A DNA stretch of 64,000 bases from Myxococcales bacterium (GTDB taxonomy: Bacteria > Myxococcota_A > Polyangia > Polyangiales > Polyangiaceae): positions 42,625-106,624 of the forward strand of contig JADIZX010000009.1 in the NCBI GenBank assembly GCA_016704525.1, read 5' to 3'. The position numbers were made by a program, and so were the translations under genes. Shown in pieces: positions 1,651 to 47,561 of the stretch (position 1 is the stretch's first letter; every line of letters starts with the position of its first letter). Below the pieces are notes generated by a model. It saw nothing but the letters and a program-made list of their open reading frames with translations, was not told where the DNA came from and searched no databases.

Positions 1651-1660
1651 GCGGACCGGC

Positions 1661-1821
1661 CTAGAGCGCCGAACCGCTTGATGACCGAGGATTTTCGCCG
1701 AGTTGCGAGCCGTGCGAGGCGCGACGACGAGTCCTACTGCTGCTAGGCGAGGAGGAGCAACGAAAGTACGGCGACGTAAATCGGCGAAAAGCCGACCGAA
1801 TCAAGCGGTTCGGCGCTCTAG
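1661..1821. repeat. MITE-like element with perfect 22-bp terminal inverted repeats (CTAGAGCGCCGAACCGCTTGAT) and subterminal TTTTCGCCGA/TCGGCGAAAA repeats
   Basis: Left TIR at 1661-1682 and its exact reverse complement at 1800-1821. It fills the gap between the convergent stop codons of gluQ and the kinase. The right half recurs at 41124-41190. Confidence 0.6.
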
Positions 1822-1822
1822 G

Positions 1823-20379: not shown

Positions 20380-20765
20380 GGGCTCTCTTTCGGATCGGGC
20401 GTGTCGAGTGGCGTGGGGGGCGTGGCCGCGGGGGCCGGTGATGTGCGCTGGAGCTCGTGCAGGTAGGCGTCGAGCCGATCGAAGCGAGCCTCGAGCTCGC
20501 GGCGGGTGTGCTCGATCCAGTCGACCGCCTCGTCGAGCGGGCGCGCGTCGAGCCGGCACGGGCGCCACTGGGCGTTTCGGCCGCGAGTGATGAGCCCGCT
20601 CTCCTCGAGCACCTTGAGGTGCCGCGAGATGGCGGGCGCGCTCAGGTCGAAGGGCCGCGCCAGCTCCTGCACCGACGCCTCGCCCTGGCCGAGGCGCGCC
20701 AGAATGGCCCGCCGCGTGGGGTGCGCGAGGGCGGCGAACGTGCGGCTGAGGGGGTCGGAGGACAT
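20376..20765 (-). CDS. ArsR/SmtB family transcriptional regulator
   Basis: Winged-HTH region ALAHPTRRAILARLGQGEASVQELARPFDLSAPAISRHLKVLEESGLI. 129 aa. Confidence 0.85.
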   Translation of the reverse strand: MSSDPLSRTFAALAHPTRRAILARLGQGEASVQELARPFDLSAPAISRHLKVLEESGLITRGRNAQWRPCRLDARPLDEAVDWIEHTRRELEARFDRLDAYLHELQRTSPAPAATPPTPLDTPDPKESP

Positions 20766-20766
20766 A

Positions 20767-20799
20767 GTTAACCTATCTGTTAATTAACAAATAGGTTAA
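20767..20799. promoter_or_regulatory. AT-rich near-perfect palindrome (TTAACCTATCTGTTAA/TTAACAAATAGGTTAA) abutting the arsR start; candidate ArsR operator
   Basis: 16-bp arms with one mismatch, beginning 2 bp upstream of the arsR ATG. A conspicuously AT-rich island in ~70% GC DNA. Confidence 0.55.
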
Positions 20800-20841
20800 A
20801 TACAGCACCGGGTCAAGCCCGCGCGGCCGGACCGCTCGCGT

Positions 20842-26717: not shown

Positions 26718-27851
26718 ATGAGGCAGCTCGTCCAGAAGGCCCGGCGCGTCGTGGTGAAGGTGGGCTCGCGCACGCTCGCGAGCGACCGCGAGGTGTTCGG
26801 GCGGCTCGCCGACGCCGTCGCCCGCGCCCAGGCCGGCGGGCGCTCGGTCGTGCTGGTGTCGAGCGGGGCCATCGCTCTCGGCGCGAAGAAGCTCGGCTAC
26901 CCTACCCGCCCCAAGGAGATGGCCAAGCTGCAGGCGGCCGCCGCGGCGGGGCAGAGCCTGCTCATGCGCGCCTACGAGGAGGCCTTCGGCGCGCGCGGAC
27001 TCGCGGTCGCCCAGGTGCTGCTCACCCACGCCGATCTCGCCGATCGCGCGCGGGTCAACAACGCACGCGCGGCGCTGTCCGCGCTGCTCGACGCGCGCGC
27101 GGTGCCCGTCCTGAACGAGAACGACTCGGTCTCGGTGGAGGAGATCAAGTTCGGCGACAACGACCAGCTCTCGGCGCTGGTCGCGCCCCTCGTCGACGCG
27201 GAGCTCCTCGTGCTCTTGTCCGACATCCCGGGGCTGCTCGACGCGGAGGGCGAGCGCGTGCCCGAGGTGCGCGACATCACGAACGAGGCGATGCGCCTCG
27301 TGCGGAGCGGGAAGAGCGCCGAGGGCACGGGCGGCATGGCGAGCAAGCTCGAGGCCGCGCGCCTCGCGACGCTCACGGGCGCGCAGGTGGTCATCGCCGA
27401 CGCGCGCGCGCGCGACGTGCTCGATCGCGTGCTCGCGGGCGACGACGTGGGCACGTGGTTCGTGGCGCCCGAGAAGCGCATCTCCGCGAAGCGCGCGTGG
27501 ATCGCGTTCACTCTTCGGCCGCGCGGCGCGCTCGTGCTCGACCCTGGCGCCGCCCGGGCTGTCACCGAGAAAGGCAAGAGCGTGCTCAGCGTGGGTGTGC
27601 TGGGCGTGCGCGGCGACTTCCGCGCGGGCGACGCCGTGCGCCTCTTGTCGCACGAGGGGGTGGAGCTCGGCCGCGGCCTGTCTCGGCTCGCGGTGGAGGC
27701 GGCCACCCGCGTCGCGGGCACCAAGGCGAGCGCGCCCGTCACGCCGAAGGCGGGCGGGGGCAAGGTCGCGTCGAAGCCCGACGATGACCGCGACGTGCTC
27801 GTGCACCGCGACGAGCTCGTGGTGTTCGCGAAGGCGAGCGCCGTCGGCTAG
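26718..27851 (+). CDS. proB: Glutamate 5-kinase with C-terminal PUA domain
   Basis: Amino-acid kinase fold (VVKVGS, VLVSSGA, NENDSV, FGDNDQLSA). C-terminal PUA region. 377 aa. Confidence 0.9.
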   Translation: MRQLVQKARRVVVKVGSRTLASDREVFGRLADAVARAQAGGRSVVLVSSGAIALGAKKLGYPTRPKEMAKLQAAAAAGQSLLMRAYEEAFGARGLAVAQVLLTHADLADRARVNNARAALSALLDARAVPVLNENDSVSVEEIKFGDNDQLSALVAPLVDAELLVLLSDIPGLLDAEGERVPEVRDITNEAMRLVRSGKSAEGTGGMASKLEAARLATLTGAQVVIADARARDVLDRVLAGDDVGTWFVAPEKRISAKRAWIAFTLRPRGALVLDPGAARAVTEKGKSVLSVGVLGVRGDFRAGDAVRLLSHEGVELGRGLSRLAVEAATRVAGTKASAPVTPKAGGGKVASKPDDDRDVLVHRDELVVFAKASAVG

Positions 27852-28153
27852 CTAGTCCCCTGGAGTCGTGGTTCGTATCAGAAGTCCGGTCTTCGGTGTC
27901 ATGCCGAGGAGCGAGGGGGTGCCCCGTTTTCGGCGGCGGCGGGCCCGTCCTCAACTCGGACGTCGTTCCGCGCGGTGGAGGCGGCGCTTTGCGCTCAGGG
28001 GACAGTGGTTTCGGGTGTGACCGCGCGAGAACGCCGACCCTCGAACATGAGTATCCTCCCACCGCCGCCGAAAACGGGACACCCCCTCGCGCCCTTGTGG
28101 CGAAAGGCCGAGCCGCGCGACTTCTGGAAGGGATCACGCTTCCAGGGGACTAG
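27852..28153. repeat. ~300-bp imperfect long palindrome with nested inverted repeats, lying between proB and the protease gene
   Basis: Outer perfect inverted repeat CTAGTCCCCTGGA (27852-27864) against TCCAGGGGACTAG (28141-28153). Inner 28-bp inverted repeat GGGGGTGCCCCGTTTTCGGCGGCGGCGG (27915-27942) against its complement at 28059-28087, with one mismatch. Further partial complementarity lies between. Mirror-image peptides (PPPPKTGHPLAP) appear in ORFs on both strands. Confidence 0.55.
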
Positions 28154-28226
28154 GTCTGACCTCATTTTGGCGTCCTCTCGCCCCGCCGCGACTCGCGCGC
28201 GGCGCGCGAGCTGCTACATCCCTGAA

Positions 28227-29099
28227 GTGAGCCCGCTTCGCTCGCTTGGGCCTTCGACGGTCGCGAAGATCCTGACCGCGGGGAGCCTGCTCGCGCTCAC
28301 CGGGTGCGCGTACCCATTCTCGGCGCTCTCGCCATTCTCGCGCACGAACGCGCGCGTCCTCGAGGAGACCTCGCTCGGCGGCGTGAGCGCGGGCAACGCG
28401 CGACCCGGCGACGCCGTGGTGCGCGTGTGGATAGGACGCGGCACCTGCTCTGGCGTGCTCGTCGCGCCGCGCGTCGTGCTGACGGCGCGGCACTGCATCA
28501 CCGAGACCACCGCGAGCCGCGAGGCGACCTCGCGGCCGAAGGTGCCCGGCGCGCTCCACGTCGAGCTCGGCGGCGACTACCTCCCGTGGGGGCGCGTCGC
28601 GGTCACCGGCGTCCACGTGTGCGAAGCTTCACCGAACGAAGAGCGCGATCTCGCCGCGCTGCTCCTCGACCGGCCCGTGCCCCCCGACGTGCCGCTCTTG
28701 GCCCTCGGGAGCCCCCGCGACGACGGGCGCTACGCGGTGCTCGGGTTCGGGTCCGACGTGTGGCCCAAGACCGTGGGCGGGATCACGGCGGAGGCCAAGC
28801 GGCGGCACGTCACGCGCGGGTCCGTAAAATCCACCAGCCCCGACACGGTTACGGTGCACGCCGCGACGCTGCACGGCGACTCGGGCGGCGCGGTGGTCGA
28901 CCTCGAGACGCGCGCGCTCGTCGCCGTGGTCTCGCGCGGCGACTACGCCGAGCGGGCGATGGACAACGTGCGCTACGGCGACATCACCGTGGGCGCGCGG
29001 GTCGACCGCTGCGAGCACGCGGTGCGCGCGGCGCTGGTCGCCGCGGAGCCCGCTGGGGCCGCCAGCCGCGCGCGGCGGGTGGCGACGGTCCGCGACTGA
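28227..29099 (+). CDS. Trypsin-like (S1 family) serine protease lipoprotein
   Basis: Catalytic His in TARHC, Ser in GDSGG, lipobox LLALTGC. GTG start uncertain. Confidence 0.75.
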   Translation: MSPLRSLGPSTVAKILTAGSLLALTGCAYPFSALSPFSRTNARVLEETSLGGVSAGNARPGDAVVRVWIGRGTCSGVLVAPRVVLTARHCITETTASREATSRPKVPGALHVELGGDYLPWGRVAVTGVHVCEASPNEERDLAALLLDRPVPPDVPLLALGSPRDDGRYAVLGFGSDVWPKTVGGITAEAKRRHVTRGSVKSTSPDTVTVHAATLHGDSGGAVVDLETRALVAVVSRGDYAERAMDNVRYGDITVGARVDRCEHAVRAALVAAEPAGAASRARRVATVRD

Positions 29100-45963: not shown

Positions 45964-46375
45964 GCGCGCGCCCGCGGTCGAGACCTTTCGCGTCTTCGCG
46001 TGAGGCGAGCGACCGCGACCCGGTCCGGGTAGCGCTCTAGCTAGCTAAGCTAGTCGCTGCGCTTTCGGCTCCGGGACCGCTTGCTCCGGGTCCGGCACCT
46101 CAGGCTTGGGGCCGGTCACTTTTTCCCTTTCTCGGCCGCCTCTCGCTCCCGCTCCGCGCGCTTTGCCATGGCCTCCGCGGGCGGGCCTCACTTCCAGGTT
46201 CGCCATCGCCCGTGGTGAAGCGGTTGAAGCGGTCGCCGCGGTGGAGATCGCCGCACACGCGGGGGACGCCACCCAAGAAGCGGCCGACCGATGCGTCGTC
46301 CTCGGGGATCGGTTGGTGGCGCTCCTCACGGGCCTCATCCGCCGCTGAGGGTTCGCGCTCGCCGCCCGCGGCTTC

Positions 46376-46441: not shown

Positions 46442-46470
46442 GGCGTTGGTCTTTTCCCGACACACTCTAG

Positions 46471-47385
46471 CTAGAGCGACGTGTTCATCACCGCGCGCGT
46501 GACGGTGTCGGCCACGAGGGGGTACTTGTTCGCGCTCAAGGGCACCGGGAACGCCACCCCGGTGAGCTTGCAGCCGGCCTTCGCGCCGGCGAACTCCACC
46601 AGCCCGGTGCCGGGCGTGACATTGGAGATGAACACGTTGGCGCCGCGATCGCCGGCGCTGGCGGTGAGCGCGAGGTTCGGGTTGAAGGAGCCCGAGTCGG
46701 CGTACTGAACCACGGCCTCCGGGTGGCCCGGGATCGTCACGACGAAGCCGCTCGCGTCGCAGGTGGGCTCGGCCCTGTTGATCACCAGGTAGAAATGGGC
46801 CTTCGCGGCGTTGTAGGTGGCGTCGAAGGACCCCATGGTCGTCTTCGCGAACACGGAGACGTCGGTGTCGGTCCGCACGCCGGGGGGGAAGTTGTAGACG
46901 ACGCTCGCGCTCTTGTAGAAATCCGCGGGGTTCGTGGACGTCACGAGCAGGTAGTGGTTCACGCCAGTGGTCGGAGTGAAGCGCACGCGCGAGCCGGCGT
47001 AGGGGAGGGGCGCGCTCGTCCCCTGGCACGCGTCCACGAGCTGGATCGAGGTCTTGCCGCTGGGGTCGGTCCCGCTGTTCGCGGGGTTGAGCTTCACATC
47101 GGTCGCGCCCTTGTCGGTGCACGCGCCGGCCTCCGTAGGAGCGTCGGGCGAGGCGTCGACTGGCGGGGGTGCATCGGGCGTGGCAGCGTCCGTCGCCGTC
47201 GCTGACGCGTCGGGGGTCGGCGTGGTGGTCGTCGTCGTCGCCGTCGTCGTGGTCGTCGTGGTCGGCGCGGGGCCCGCGTCGGTCGCGGCCGGATCGCTGC
47301 TGCAGGCGCCGAGGGGCGCGAGGGGCGCGATCGCGCCGACGGCGAGGAGGGCGAGCAGCGGACGCTTCAGGGTGAAGTTGTGCAT
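46471..47385 (-). CDS. Secreted lipoprotein with poly-Thr linker
   Basis: Lipobox LAPLGACSS. The run TTTTTTTATTTTTTPTP is encoded by GTC/GTG-rich repeats. Cys-containing C-terminal domain. Confidence 0.6.
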   Translation of the reverse strand: MHNFTLKRPLLALLAVGAIAPLAPLGACSSDPAATDAGPAPTTTTTTTATTTTTTPTPDASATATDAATPDAPPPVDASPDAPTEAGACTDKGATDVKLNPANSGTDPSGKTSIQLVDACQGTSAPLPYAGSRVRFTPTTGVNHYLLVTSTNPADFYKSASVVYNFPPGVRTDTDVSVFAKTTMGSFDATYNAAKAHFYLVINRAEPTCDASGFVVTIPGHPEAVVQYADSGSFNPNLALTASAGDRGANVFISNVTPGTGLVEFAGAKAGCKLTGVAFPVPLSANKYPLVADTVTRAVMNTSL

Positions 47386-47561
47386 GAGGCCTAGCTAGGG
47401 GGGGGCGAGTGAAGGTGGGTACAAGCATACGCGGCCGAGGCGGAGAGGCAACCGAACATCGAGCGCCCGCGAGGAGCGGCGAACGCAGCGATGCGAGGCG
47501 GGCCGGGCGCGGCGAGCTTGGAGATTGCGTCACGCCTCGCGCGGCGCTACGAGGTCCGGGG

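What the first reader, a model, noticed from the sequence alone, without database searches (positions are those of the whole stretch)
27852..28153. ~300-bp imperfect long palindrome between proB and an S1 protease gene
Nested inverted repeats (a perfect outer 13-mer and a 28-bp inner arm with one mismatch, with additional partial complementarity) would let ~150 nt fold back on the next ~150 nt. This is far larger than a terminator and has CTAG-bearing ends like the MITE-like element. Such long hairpins can be MITEs, integron-like recombination substrates, RNase III-processed sRNA precursors or cruciform-forming sites. The mirror-image coding artefact (PPPPKTGHPLAP on both strands) confirms the symmetry.
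Basis: seen in the sequence. Interest (0 to 1): 0.5.

Follow-up and report, generated by a model that had tools for sequence, protein, structure and literature searches.

The report
IS630-type MITE inserted after proB
The 300-base hairpin is a small transposase-less mobile element (a MITE of the IS630/Tc1-mariner kind) that landed just after the proB stop codon; it is a real and recently mobile element, but of an ordinary, well-known type.

Summary
Window 27852-28153 is a 302-bp imperfect palindrome (13/13 terminal arms, 33/36 inner arms) that folds far better than shuffled sequence (z = -9.1 and -8.4).

It is a MITE.
- It is a clean insertion. Relatives with 89-93% identical proB have only 67-69 nt between proB and the protease gene.
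- The same 302-bp unit, 96.6-100% identical, has at least seven other flanks, one in the same MAG. Homology always starts and stops at CTAG.
Those hits have unrelated flanks and fall into size classes of 56-215 bp (mostly 166 bp) and about 1189 bp.
- The 1189-bp units encode an IS630-family transposase (NF033545, 265-282 bits against a cutoff of 100). One is in a Polyangiales MAG.

Most likely mechanism: cut-and-paste in trans by an IS630 transposase into the TA of a CTAG. The hairpin follows from the palindromic build.

Not shown: a cognate transposase in this genome, TA versus CTAG duplication, or any effect on proB or the protease gene.

Verdict: new member of a known kind, low interest.

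The parts
27852..28153 (.). Complete 302-bp MITE as shared between copies (CTAG...CTAG). If the TA duplication is excluded, the element proper is 27855-28150 (GTCCCC...GGGGAC).
   Evidence: Homology with the second copy (L013, 97%) and with the same-locus copies (L012, L014-L016, 99.7-100%) begins and ends exactly at these CTAGs. The segment is absent from the orthologous loci L004, L005 and L007-L010.
27852..27886 (+). Left terminal inverted repeat (~35 bp): CTAGTCCCCTGGAGTCGTGGTTCGTATCAGAAGTC
   Evidence: Inverted repeat I2. It matches the family terminus profile built from 140 distinct ends, conserved at positions 1-13, 16-21, 24-25, 31-32 and 34-35. The same terminus is found on the 1.19-kb IS630 elements.
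28119..28153 (-). Right terminal inverted repeat, read on the - strand: CTAGTCCCCTGGAAGCGTGATCCCTTCCAGAAGTC
   Evidence: The first 21 nt are identical to the ends of 166-bp family members.
27908..27943 (.). Inner left arm of the extended palindrome
   Evidence: I1: 36 nt, 92% complementary to 28058-28093. Specific to this 302-bp subfamily; not shared with the IS or with the 166-bp class.
28058..28093 (.). Inner right arm of the extended palindrome
27853..27854 (.). Left copy of the presumed TA target duplication (inside CTAG). Inferred, not demonstrated.
   Evidence: By analogy with the family: IS630 inserts at the TA of CTAG, and Tc1/mariner/IS630 elements duplicate TA (PMC2170065, read). All copies are bounded by CTAG.
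28151..28152 (.). Right copy of the presumed TA target duplication (inside CTAG). Inferred.
   Evidence: Same as for the left copy.
27848..27851 (+). Extra CTAG that contains the proB stop codon TAG, giving CTAGCTAG at the left junction. Context, unexplained.
   Evidence: A simple insertion into a single CTAG would not leave this extra tetramer.
26718..27851 (+). proB (glutamate 5-kinase), the upstream neighbour. Context only.
   Evidence: Pfam AA_kinase 7.7e-39 and PUA 3.6e-14. The exact protein is present in three public MAG assemblies.
28227..29099 (+). Trypsin-like lipoprotein protease gene, the downstream neighbour. Context only. The 73 nt at 28154-28226 are the original spacer.
   Evidence: Pfam Trypsin and Trypsin_2. 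The start is conserved with L004 and L007.

Best explanation
The segment is a non-autonomous miniature inverted-repeat transposable element (MITE) of the IS630 / Tc1-mariner type. It encodes no protein. Its ~35-bp terminal inverted repeats carry the same conserved blocks as the ends of ~1.19-kb insertion sequences that encode an IS630-family DDE transposase. The most likely mechanism is that such a transposase, supplied in trans from elsewhere in the genome, binds both ends, cuts the element out, and pastes it into the TA of a CTAG tetranucleotide. Here the target lay directly after the proB stop codon. The long hairpin follows from the element's palindromic build and is not a locus-specific device.

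Shown here: the insertion and empty-site polymorphism, multiple copies, CTAG boundaries, shared termini with transposase-bearing elements, and the family assignment of that transposase.

Inferred: TA duplication, mobilisation in trans, and recent activity in this lineage.
For: 1. Clean insertion. Relatives with 93% (L004, L005) and 89% (L007-L010) identical proB keep proB-protease synteny with a 69- or 67-nt spacer. The window has 375 nt, which is 302 nt of element plus a 73-nt spacer that shares the conserved block ahead of the protease start.

2. Real sequence. The element is 99.7-100% identical at this locus in three separate assemblies, on contigs of 814 kb, 618 kb and 8 kb.

3. Other copies. 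L013 lies on another contig of the same MAG (GCA_016720545.1). It is 97% identical over all 302 nt, inverted, and sits at an unrelated locus. L042, L061, L067, L110, L037 and L121 are 96.6-99.2% identical where measured, each with a different flank, on 68-73% GC contigs.

4. Superfamily. That gave 148 ends and 140 distinct 62-mers. Flanks outside CTAG carry no more than 0.4 bit per position. Inverted pairs fall in discrete sizes: 166 bp is dominant, with others at 56, 88, 106, 153 and about 1189 bp.

5. Autonomous relatives. Nine units of 1183-1193 bp each carry one 363-364-aa ORF. It scores 265-282 bits on NCBIfam NF033545 'IS630 family transposase' (cutoff 100) and matches Pfam DDE_3 and HTH_32. 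A 1187-bp copy with the same ends lies in a Polyangiales MAG.

6. Target. IS630 inserts at the TA of CTAG (Tenzen & Ohtsubo 1991, as listed in PMC2170065). A 57%-identical annotated IS630 on an Acidovorax plasmid is also bounded by CTAG.

7. No coding capacity. The ORFs through the element have no Pfam hit, and they mirror each other on the two strands.

8. Short-read contigs L017-L019 break inside the element, as expected for a repeat.
Against: No IS630 transposase lies in the 64-kb window (tblastn), and I could not scan the whole host MAG. A cognate transposase in this genome is therefore not shown.

Similarity to the IS is limited to the termini: 13-14 nt exact and patchy out to about 35 nt. 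The loci were selected with a pattern containing those 17 bases, so the sharing of the terminus itself is partly by construction. What is not by construction is that units so bounded have fixed sizes and encode an IS630 transposase.

CTAG is palindromic, so a 2-bp TA duplication cannot be told apart from a 4-bp CTAG duplication.

The left junction reads CTAGCTAG, one tetramer more than a simple insertion into the CTAG of the stop codon predicts.

The inner-arm 20-mer found no true copy in 185,579 species-representative genomes, so this subfamily is narrow.
Confidence: 0.9

Rival explanations
1. It is a MITE, but of the IS5 type. It would then be mobilised by an IS5-family transposase that duplicates the whole 4-bp CTAG, as described for MITEPsy1 in Pseudomonas syringae.
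For: Every copy is bounded by CTAG on both sides. MITEPsy1 (IS5?) duplicates CTAG or YTAA (PMC3189936). The tandem CTAGCTAG at the left junction, and three more in the window, are what two retained 4-bp duplications would look like.
Against: All nine complete ~1.19-kb units bounded by this terminus, plus the Polyangiales copy, encode an IS630-family transposase, not an IS5 one. No unit with another transposase was seen. CTAGCTAG is absent from 480 kb of metagenome loci that carry family members.
Confidence: 0.04
2. The hairpin is primarily a functional RNA. It could be a proB 3'-UTR stabiliser or attenuator, an RNase III-processed sRNA precursor, or a regulator of the downstream protease gene.
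For: Very stable fold on both strands. It lies directly after the proB stop and on the same strand as both neighbours, so it is probably transcribed. MITEs are known to be co-opted in this way (general knowledge).
Against: It is absent from the same site in the closest relatives. The same unit occurs at unrelated loci and in the opposite orientation. No Rfam family reaches threshold: the only hit is the plant family MIR1437 at 36 bits against a gathering score of 168. No promoter-like or intrinsic-terminator-like site lies in 27600-28400. At most this is a secondary use of a mobile element.
Confidence: 0.04
3. It is a site-specific recombination substrate (integron attC-like), a cruciform or replication-related palindrome, a local inverted duplication, or an assembly artefact.
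For: Long imperfect palindromes can serve these roles. Short-read contigs break inside it.
Against: At 302 bp it is far larger than an attC site. Six neighbouring ORFs show no integrase. Copies with unrelated flanks exclude a local duplication. Three independent assemblies, including contigs over 600 kb, agree to 99.7-100%.
Confidence: 0.02

Closest known systems
IS630 (Shigella sonnei) and ISY100 (Synechocystis): the bacterial IS630 / Tc1-mariner family
   Same: The autonomous relatives are ~1.19 kb with one DDE transposase carrying N-terminal helix-turn-helix domains. They score above the NF033545 cutoff and have terminal inverted repeats bounded by CTAG. The target preference matches IS630's TA within CTAG.
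   Different: The window element has no transposase and shares only its ~35-bp ends with these insertion sequences. Its interior is unrelated. The terminus GTCCCCTGGAAnCGTGAT marks a particular environmental clade, about 55-57% identical in protein to annotated plasmid IS630s.
Bacterial IS630-associated MITEs such as RUP of Streptococcus pneumoniae, and plant Stowaway MITEs mobilised by mariner-like transposases (recalled from general knowledge; Stowaway is cited in the reference list of PMC2170065)
   Same: Short, non-coding, TA-targeting and multi-copy. They fold into long hairpins, carry TIRs borrowed from a Tc1/mariner/IS630 element, and sit in intergenic regions next to genes.
   Different: Different sequence and host (uncultured Polyangiaceae from wastewater). 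At 302 bp it is longer than the dominant 166-bp relatives, and its palindromy extends about 125 nt from each end.
MITEPsy1 of Pseudomonas syringae (IS5-derived)
   Same: A small MITE that inserts at CTAG (PMC3189936).
   Different: MITEPsy1 is 100 nt long, has IS5-type ends (GGAAGGT...), and duplicates 4 nt. The ends here belong to IS630-type elements.

Membership tests
MITE (non-autonomous bacterial DNA transposon) | Small size and no transposase or other coding capacity | tested here: met
   302 bp. The ORFs crossing it (27896-28153 +, 27739-28137 -) have no Pfam hit. The open frames mirror each other on the two strands, as expected of a GC-rich palindrome.
MITE (non-autonomous bacterial DNA transposon) | Terminal inverted repeats | tested here: met
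   35-nt arms with 28/35 matching and the first 13 perfect.
MITE (non-autonomous bacterial DNA transposon) | Several near-identical copies at unrelated loci | tested here: met
   L013 is in the same MAG: 97% identical, full length, inverted. L042, L061, L067, L110, L037 and L121 each have a distinct flank; five of them measured 96.6-99.2% identical.
MITE (non-autonomous bacterial DNA transposon) | Presence/absence polymorphism with an intact empty site in relatives | tested here: met
   L004 and L005 have a 69-nt spacer and L007-L010 a 67-nt spacer, against 375 nt in the window.
MITE (non-autonomous bacterial DNA transposon) | Target-site duplication flanking each copy | tested here: inconclusive
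   All copies are bounded by CTAG. Among relaxed partner ends, 42 of 54 are CTAG. Because CTAG is palindromic, duplication and inverted repeat cannot be separated. No exact pre-insertion allele was available.
IS630 / Tc1-mariner family (as a derivative of it) | Ends shared with autonomous elements that encode an IS630-family DDE transposase | tested here: met
   Nine units of 1183-1193 bp plus L141 (1187 bp) carry the same termini. NF033545 scores 265-282 bits against a cutoff of 100; DDE_3 and HTH_32 also match.
IS630 / Tc1-mariner family (as a derivative of it) | Insertion at TA (CTAG for IS630) with TA duplication | tested here: inconclusive
   The CTAG context is met. A 2-bp duplication cannot be distinguished from a 4-bp one.
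IS630 / Tc1-mariner family (as a derivative of it) | A cognate transposase present in the same genome | not tested
   None in the 64-kb window. The whole MAG could not be scanned. The closest taxon-labelled copy is in a Polyangiales MAG.
IS630 / Tc1-mariner family (as a derivative of it) | Transposase binds and mobilises these ends | not testable with these tools
   Needs an EMSA or a transposition assay.
IS5-family MITE (4-bp CTAG/YTAR duplication) | Ends shared with an IS5-type element or transposase | tested here: not met
   Every transposase-bearing unit found with these ends is IS630-type.
Described structured RNA family (Rfam 15) | Match at or above a family's gathering score | tested here: not met
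   The only hit is MIR1437 at 36 bits against 168, E = 6.5e-4.

The most novel reading that the evidence does not exclude
The element might be more than a passenger in two ways.

(a) The tandem CTAGCTAG at its left junction, together with three more tandem CTAGCTAGs in the same 64 kb (two of them exactly bracketing a gene), could be scars of earlier insertion-excision cycles. That would imply this IS630 clade duplicates the whole CTAG and excises, leaving a readable record of MITE turnover.

(b) The proB-attached hairpin could have been co-opted as an RNA-level insulator or stabiliser between proB and the protease gene.
Probability: 0.1. Interest if true: 0.4.

Novelty: new member of a known kind. 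Interest (0 to 1): 0.2.

Why it matters
The main value is practical. The finding explains an odd 300-bp hairpin and corrects an annotation artefact: two public assemblies start the protease gene inside the MITE. It also accounts for short-read assemblies of this wastewater Polyangiaceae population breaking at this point.

It documents a very abundant environmental clade of IS630 elements and their MITEs, with a sharply conserved terminus and a dominant 166-bp form. This clade could be catalogued in ISfinder-type resources and masked in repeat-aware binning. No new mechanism is implied.

Tried and rejected
- Inner-arm 20-mer against 185,579 species-representative genomes: three hits in unrelated phyla that match only the 20-mer. 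These are chance matches, so this subfamily was not found in species-representative genomes.
- Rfam at relaxed threshold: only the plant miRNA family MIR1437, far below its gathering score. This is a generic long-hairpin resemblance and was rejected.
- Copies inside the window: none besides the two arms themselves.
- Promoter and terminator scan of 27600-28400: nothing.
- L006 (92% proB relative) has a 369-nt spacer and first looked like a second filled site. It holds an unrelated 74-aa minus-strand ORF instead.
- tblastn of the Polyangiales IS630 transposase against the window: no hit.
- Cluster-member look-up of eight transposase clusters, to find one from the host MAG: uninformative.
- CTAGCTAG as a general excision footprint of this family: 0 occurrences in 480 kb of loci that carry family members, so not supported outside this genome.
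- Partner ends ending in CTAA or CTAC, which would favour a TA-only duplication: only two cases, and they are indistinguishable from point mutations.
- A six-frame concatenated pseudo-protein of the element was searched against the 5.8-billion-protein collection. This worked: it returned P0121 and P0122, which led to L012 and L013.

Full report
**Observation**

The segment is as described. Window 27852-28153 has a 35-nt outer inverted repeat that is 80% complementary, with its first 13 nt (CTAGTCCCCTGGA) perfect. It also has a 36-nt inner inverted repeat that is 92% complementary. Aligning the left half with the reverse complement of the right half gives 79% column identity, and pairing extends about 125 nt from each end.

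As RNA, the + strand folds at -190.6 kcal/mol, against -140.8 +/- 5.45 for dinucleotide shuffles (z = -9.1). The - strand gives z = -8.4. No shuffle did as well on either strand.

The neighbours are proB (26718-27851; AA_kinase + PUA) and a trypsin-like protease gene. The protease's true start is most likely the GTG at 28227, which is followed by a lipoprotein-type signal peptide. The window is 71.5% GC. Its proB is closest to uncultured Polyangiaceae from wastewater.

**It is an insertion**

I fetched the proB loci of the closest relatives. In L004 and L005 (proB 93% identical) and in L007-L010 (89%), proB is followed by the same protease gene after only 69 and 67 nt. The window has 375 nt between the two genes. 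That is 302 nt of element plus 73 nt that end in the same conserved block ahead of the protease start.

L006 (92%) carries something different in this slot, a 74-aa minus-strand ORF.

The exact window proB, followed by the element at 99.7-100% identity, is present in three independent assemblies: GCA_963852875.1 (814-kb contig), GCA_016720545.1 (618-kb contig) and GCA_020054605.1. The element is therefore not an assembly artefact. Three short-read metagenome contigs break inside it, which is typical of repeats.

**It has other copies**

No copy lies elsewhere in the window. An inner-arm 20-mer found only chance matches in 185,579 species-representative genomes.

I then translated all six frames of the element, joined them, and searched the protein collection. 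The reasoning was that gene callers would have called ORFs across other copies. Two proteins came back.
- P0121 is this same protease, annotated with an N-terminal extension that starts inside the element.
- P0122 is an Exo_endo_phos protein whose last ~50 residues are element-encoded.

The contig of P0122 (L013, GCA_016720545.1, the same MAG that holds the exact proB locus) carries the whole 302-bp unit. It is 97% identical and inverted, and it sits at an unrelated locus. Homology begins and ends exactly at the two CTAGs. The few indels against the window copy are all in G or C runs and may be long-read sequencing errors; that is my inference.

The later metagenome scan added six more ends of this same subfamily, each with a different flank, on 68-73% GC contigs: L042 (a truncated copy), L061, L067, L110, L037 and L121. 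The five that blastn aligned are 96.6-99.2% identical; L037 holds only ~50 nt of the end.

**It belongs to a large family with an identifiable transposase**

The 148 ends give 140 distinct 62-mers. The 12 nt outside CTAG carry no more than 0.4 bit per position. Positions beyond the search pattern are conserved at A20, T21, C24, T25, A31, A32, T34 and C35. These are therefore homologous ends at many different insertion sites, not chance matches.

Inverted pairs of ends fall in discrete size classes. The dominant class is 166 bp. There are minor classes at 56, 88, 106, 153 and up to 215 bp, and one class at 1183-1193 bp.

The nine ~1.19-kb units each hold a single 363-364-aa ORF. It scores 265-282 bits on NCBIfam NF033545 'IS630 family transposase' (cutoff 100) and matches Pfam DDE_3 and HTH_32. 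Both of their ends read CTAGTCCCCTGGA....

The transposase has more than 7,900 relatives at E <= 1e-60. Most sit on contigs about as long as the IS itself. One, labelled Polyangiales (P0131, 86% identical to the L112 transposase used as query), lies in a 1187-bp unit with the same ends. An annotated IS630 on an Acidovorax plasmid, 57% identical in protein, is likewise bounded by CTAG.

The window element shares only its termini with these insertion sequences (13-14 nt exact, patchy to ~35 nt) and with the 166-bp class (21 nt exact). Its interior is unrelated to both.

**Mechanism**

IS630/Tc1-mariner transposases bind the inverted repeats through N-terminal helix-turn-helix domains. They cut and paste into TA, which is duplicated, and IS630 itself prefers the TA within CTAG (PMC2170065 and the Tenzen & Ohtsubo references listed there).

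The best-supported reading is that the 302-bp unit is a non-autonomous derivative of this kind. It would be mobilised in trans and inserted at a CTAG just after the proB stop codon, after this lineage split from the relatives with 93% identical proB. The hairpin is a by-product of its palindromic build.

Several steps remain inferred.
- No transposase lies in the 64-kb window, and the whole MAG could not be searched.
- Because CTAG is palindromic, a TA duplication cannot be told from a CTAG duplication. Partner-end variants (CTAA, CTAC) are too few to decide.
- The left junction reads CTAGCTAG, one tetramer more than a simple insertion into the CTAG of the stop codon predicts.

**Rivals**

An IS5-type MITE with a 4-bp CTAG duplication, as in MITEPsy1 (PMC3189936), fits the flanks. 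However, every transposase-bearing unit found with these ends is IS630-type.

A dedicated regulatory RNA is unlikely as the primary identity. The element is missing from the same site in close relatives. It occurs elsewhere in the opposite orientation. It matches no Rfam family at threshold, the only hit being MIR1437 at 36 bits against 168. No promoter-like or terminator-like site was found around it. Secondary co-option cannot be excluded without transcript data.

The attC-like, cruciform, local-duplication and assembly-artefact readings are contradicted by the element's size, its multi-locus copies, and the three concordant assemblies.

**Verdict**

This is a genuine and apparently recently mobile MITE of a well-known kind: a new member, not a new mechanism.

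Two by-products are worth recording. Two public assemblies annotate the protease with a spurious N-terminal extension that starts inside the MITE. And there is a very abundant environmental IS630 clade whose MITEs share the terminus GTCCCCTGGAAnCGTGAT.

Noticed in passing
window 1660-1822: A second hairpin element, 163 bp, with 48-nt arms that are 81% complementary (CCTAGAGCGCCGAACCGCTTGAT...) and bounded by CTAG on both sides. It is probably another CTAG-targeting MITE of a different family. No copy was found among the 142 fetched loci.
   Followed up: partly
window 27848-27855, 46037-46044, 46467-46474, 47391-47398: CTAG is 3.4-fold under-represented in the window (27 seen against 90.8 expected), yet tandem CTAGCTAG occurs four times (~0.01 expected). 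The sites at 46467 and 47391 exactly bracket a minus-strand ORF for a Thr-rich secreted protein. The site at 46037 reads CTAGCTAGCTAAGCTAG. These could be transposon scars, all-frame stop signals or cassette boundaries. The motif is absent from 480 kb of metagenome loci that carry the same MITE family.
   Followed up: partly
L039, L042, L047, L052, L071, L101, L105, L109, L128, L134, L137 (flanks of family ends): The flank CCACGGGCTG|CTAG recurs next to otherwise unrelated insertions. In some loci the other side reads CTAG|CAGCCCGTGG, which makes a 24-bp palindrome centred on CTAG. This is either a preferred palindromic target or the end of another CTAG-bounded repeat that serves as a landing pad. 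L026 and L107 show two family elements back to back, sharing one CTAG.
   Followed up: no
window 28047-28226 (compare P0121; L012 3755-4807, L014, L016): Two public assemblies annotate the protease as 350 aa, starting at an ATG inside the MITE (MSILPPPPKTGHPLAP...). Relatives and the signal peptide point to the GTG at 28227 (290 aa). In L013, likewise, the last ~50 residues of the annotated Exo_endo_phos protein are MITE-encoded.
   Followed up: yes
L006 5189-5413 (minus strand): In a relative with 92% identical proB, the proB-protease spacer holds a 74-aa ORF with a lipoprotein-like signal (…FLGIVGC…) and a Cys-rich tail in place of the MITE. The same intergenic slot has therefore been hit by independent insertions.
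   Followed up: no
window 20765-20802: An AT-rich near-perfect palindrome (TAGTTAACCTATCTGTTAATTAAC / GTTAATTAACAAATAGGTTAAATA; 24-nt arms, 92% complementary) in a 71.5% GC window.
   Followed up: no
metagenome loci L020-L139: The dominant relatives of the window element are 166-bp MITEs: 20 exact pairs among 120 loci, mostly from soil and rhizosphere samples. Smaller forms of 56 and 88 bp are little more than two joined ends. Many lie within ~130 nt of contig ends, which suggests they commonly break metagenome assemblies.
   Followed up: partly
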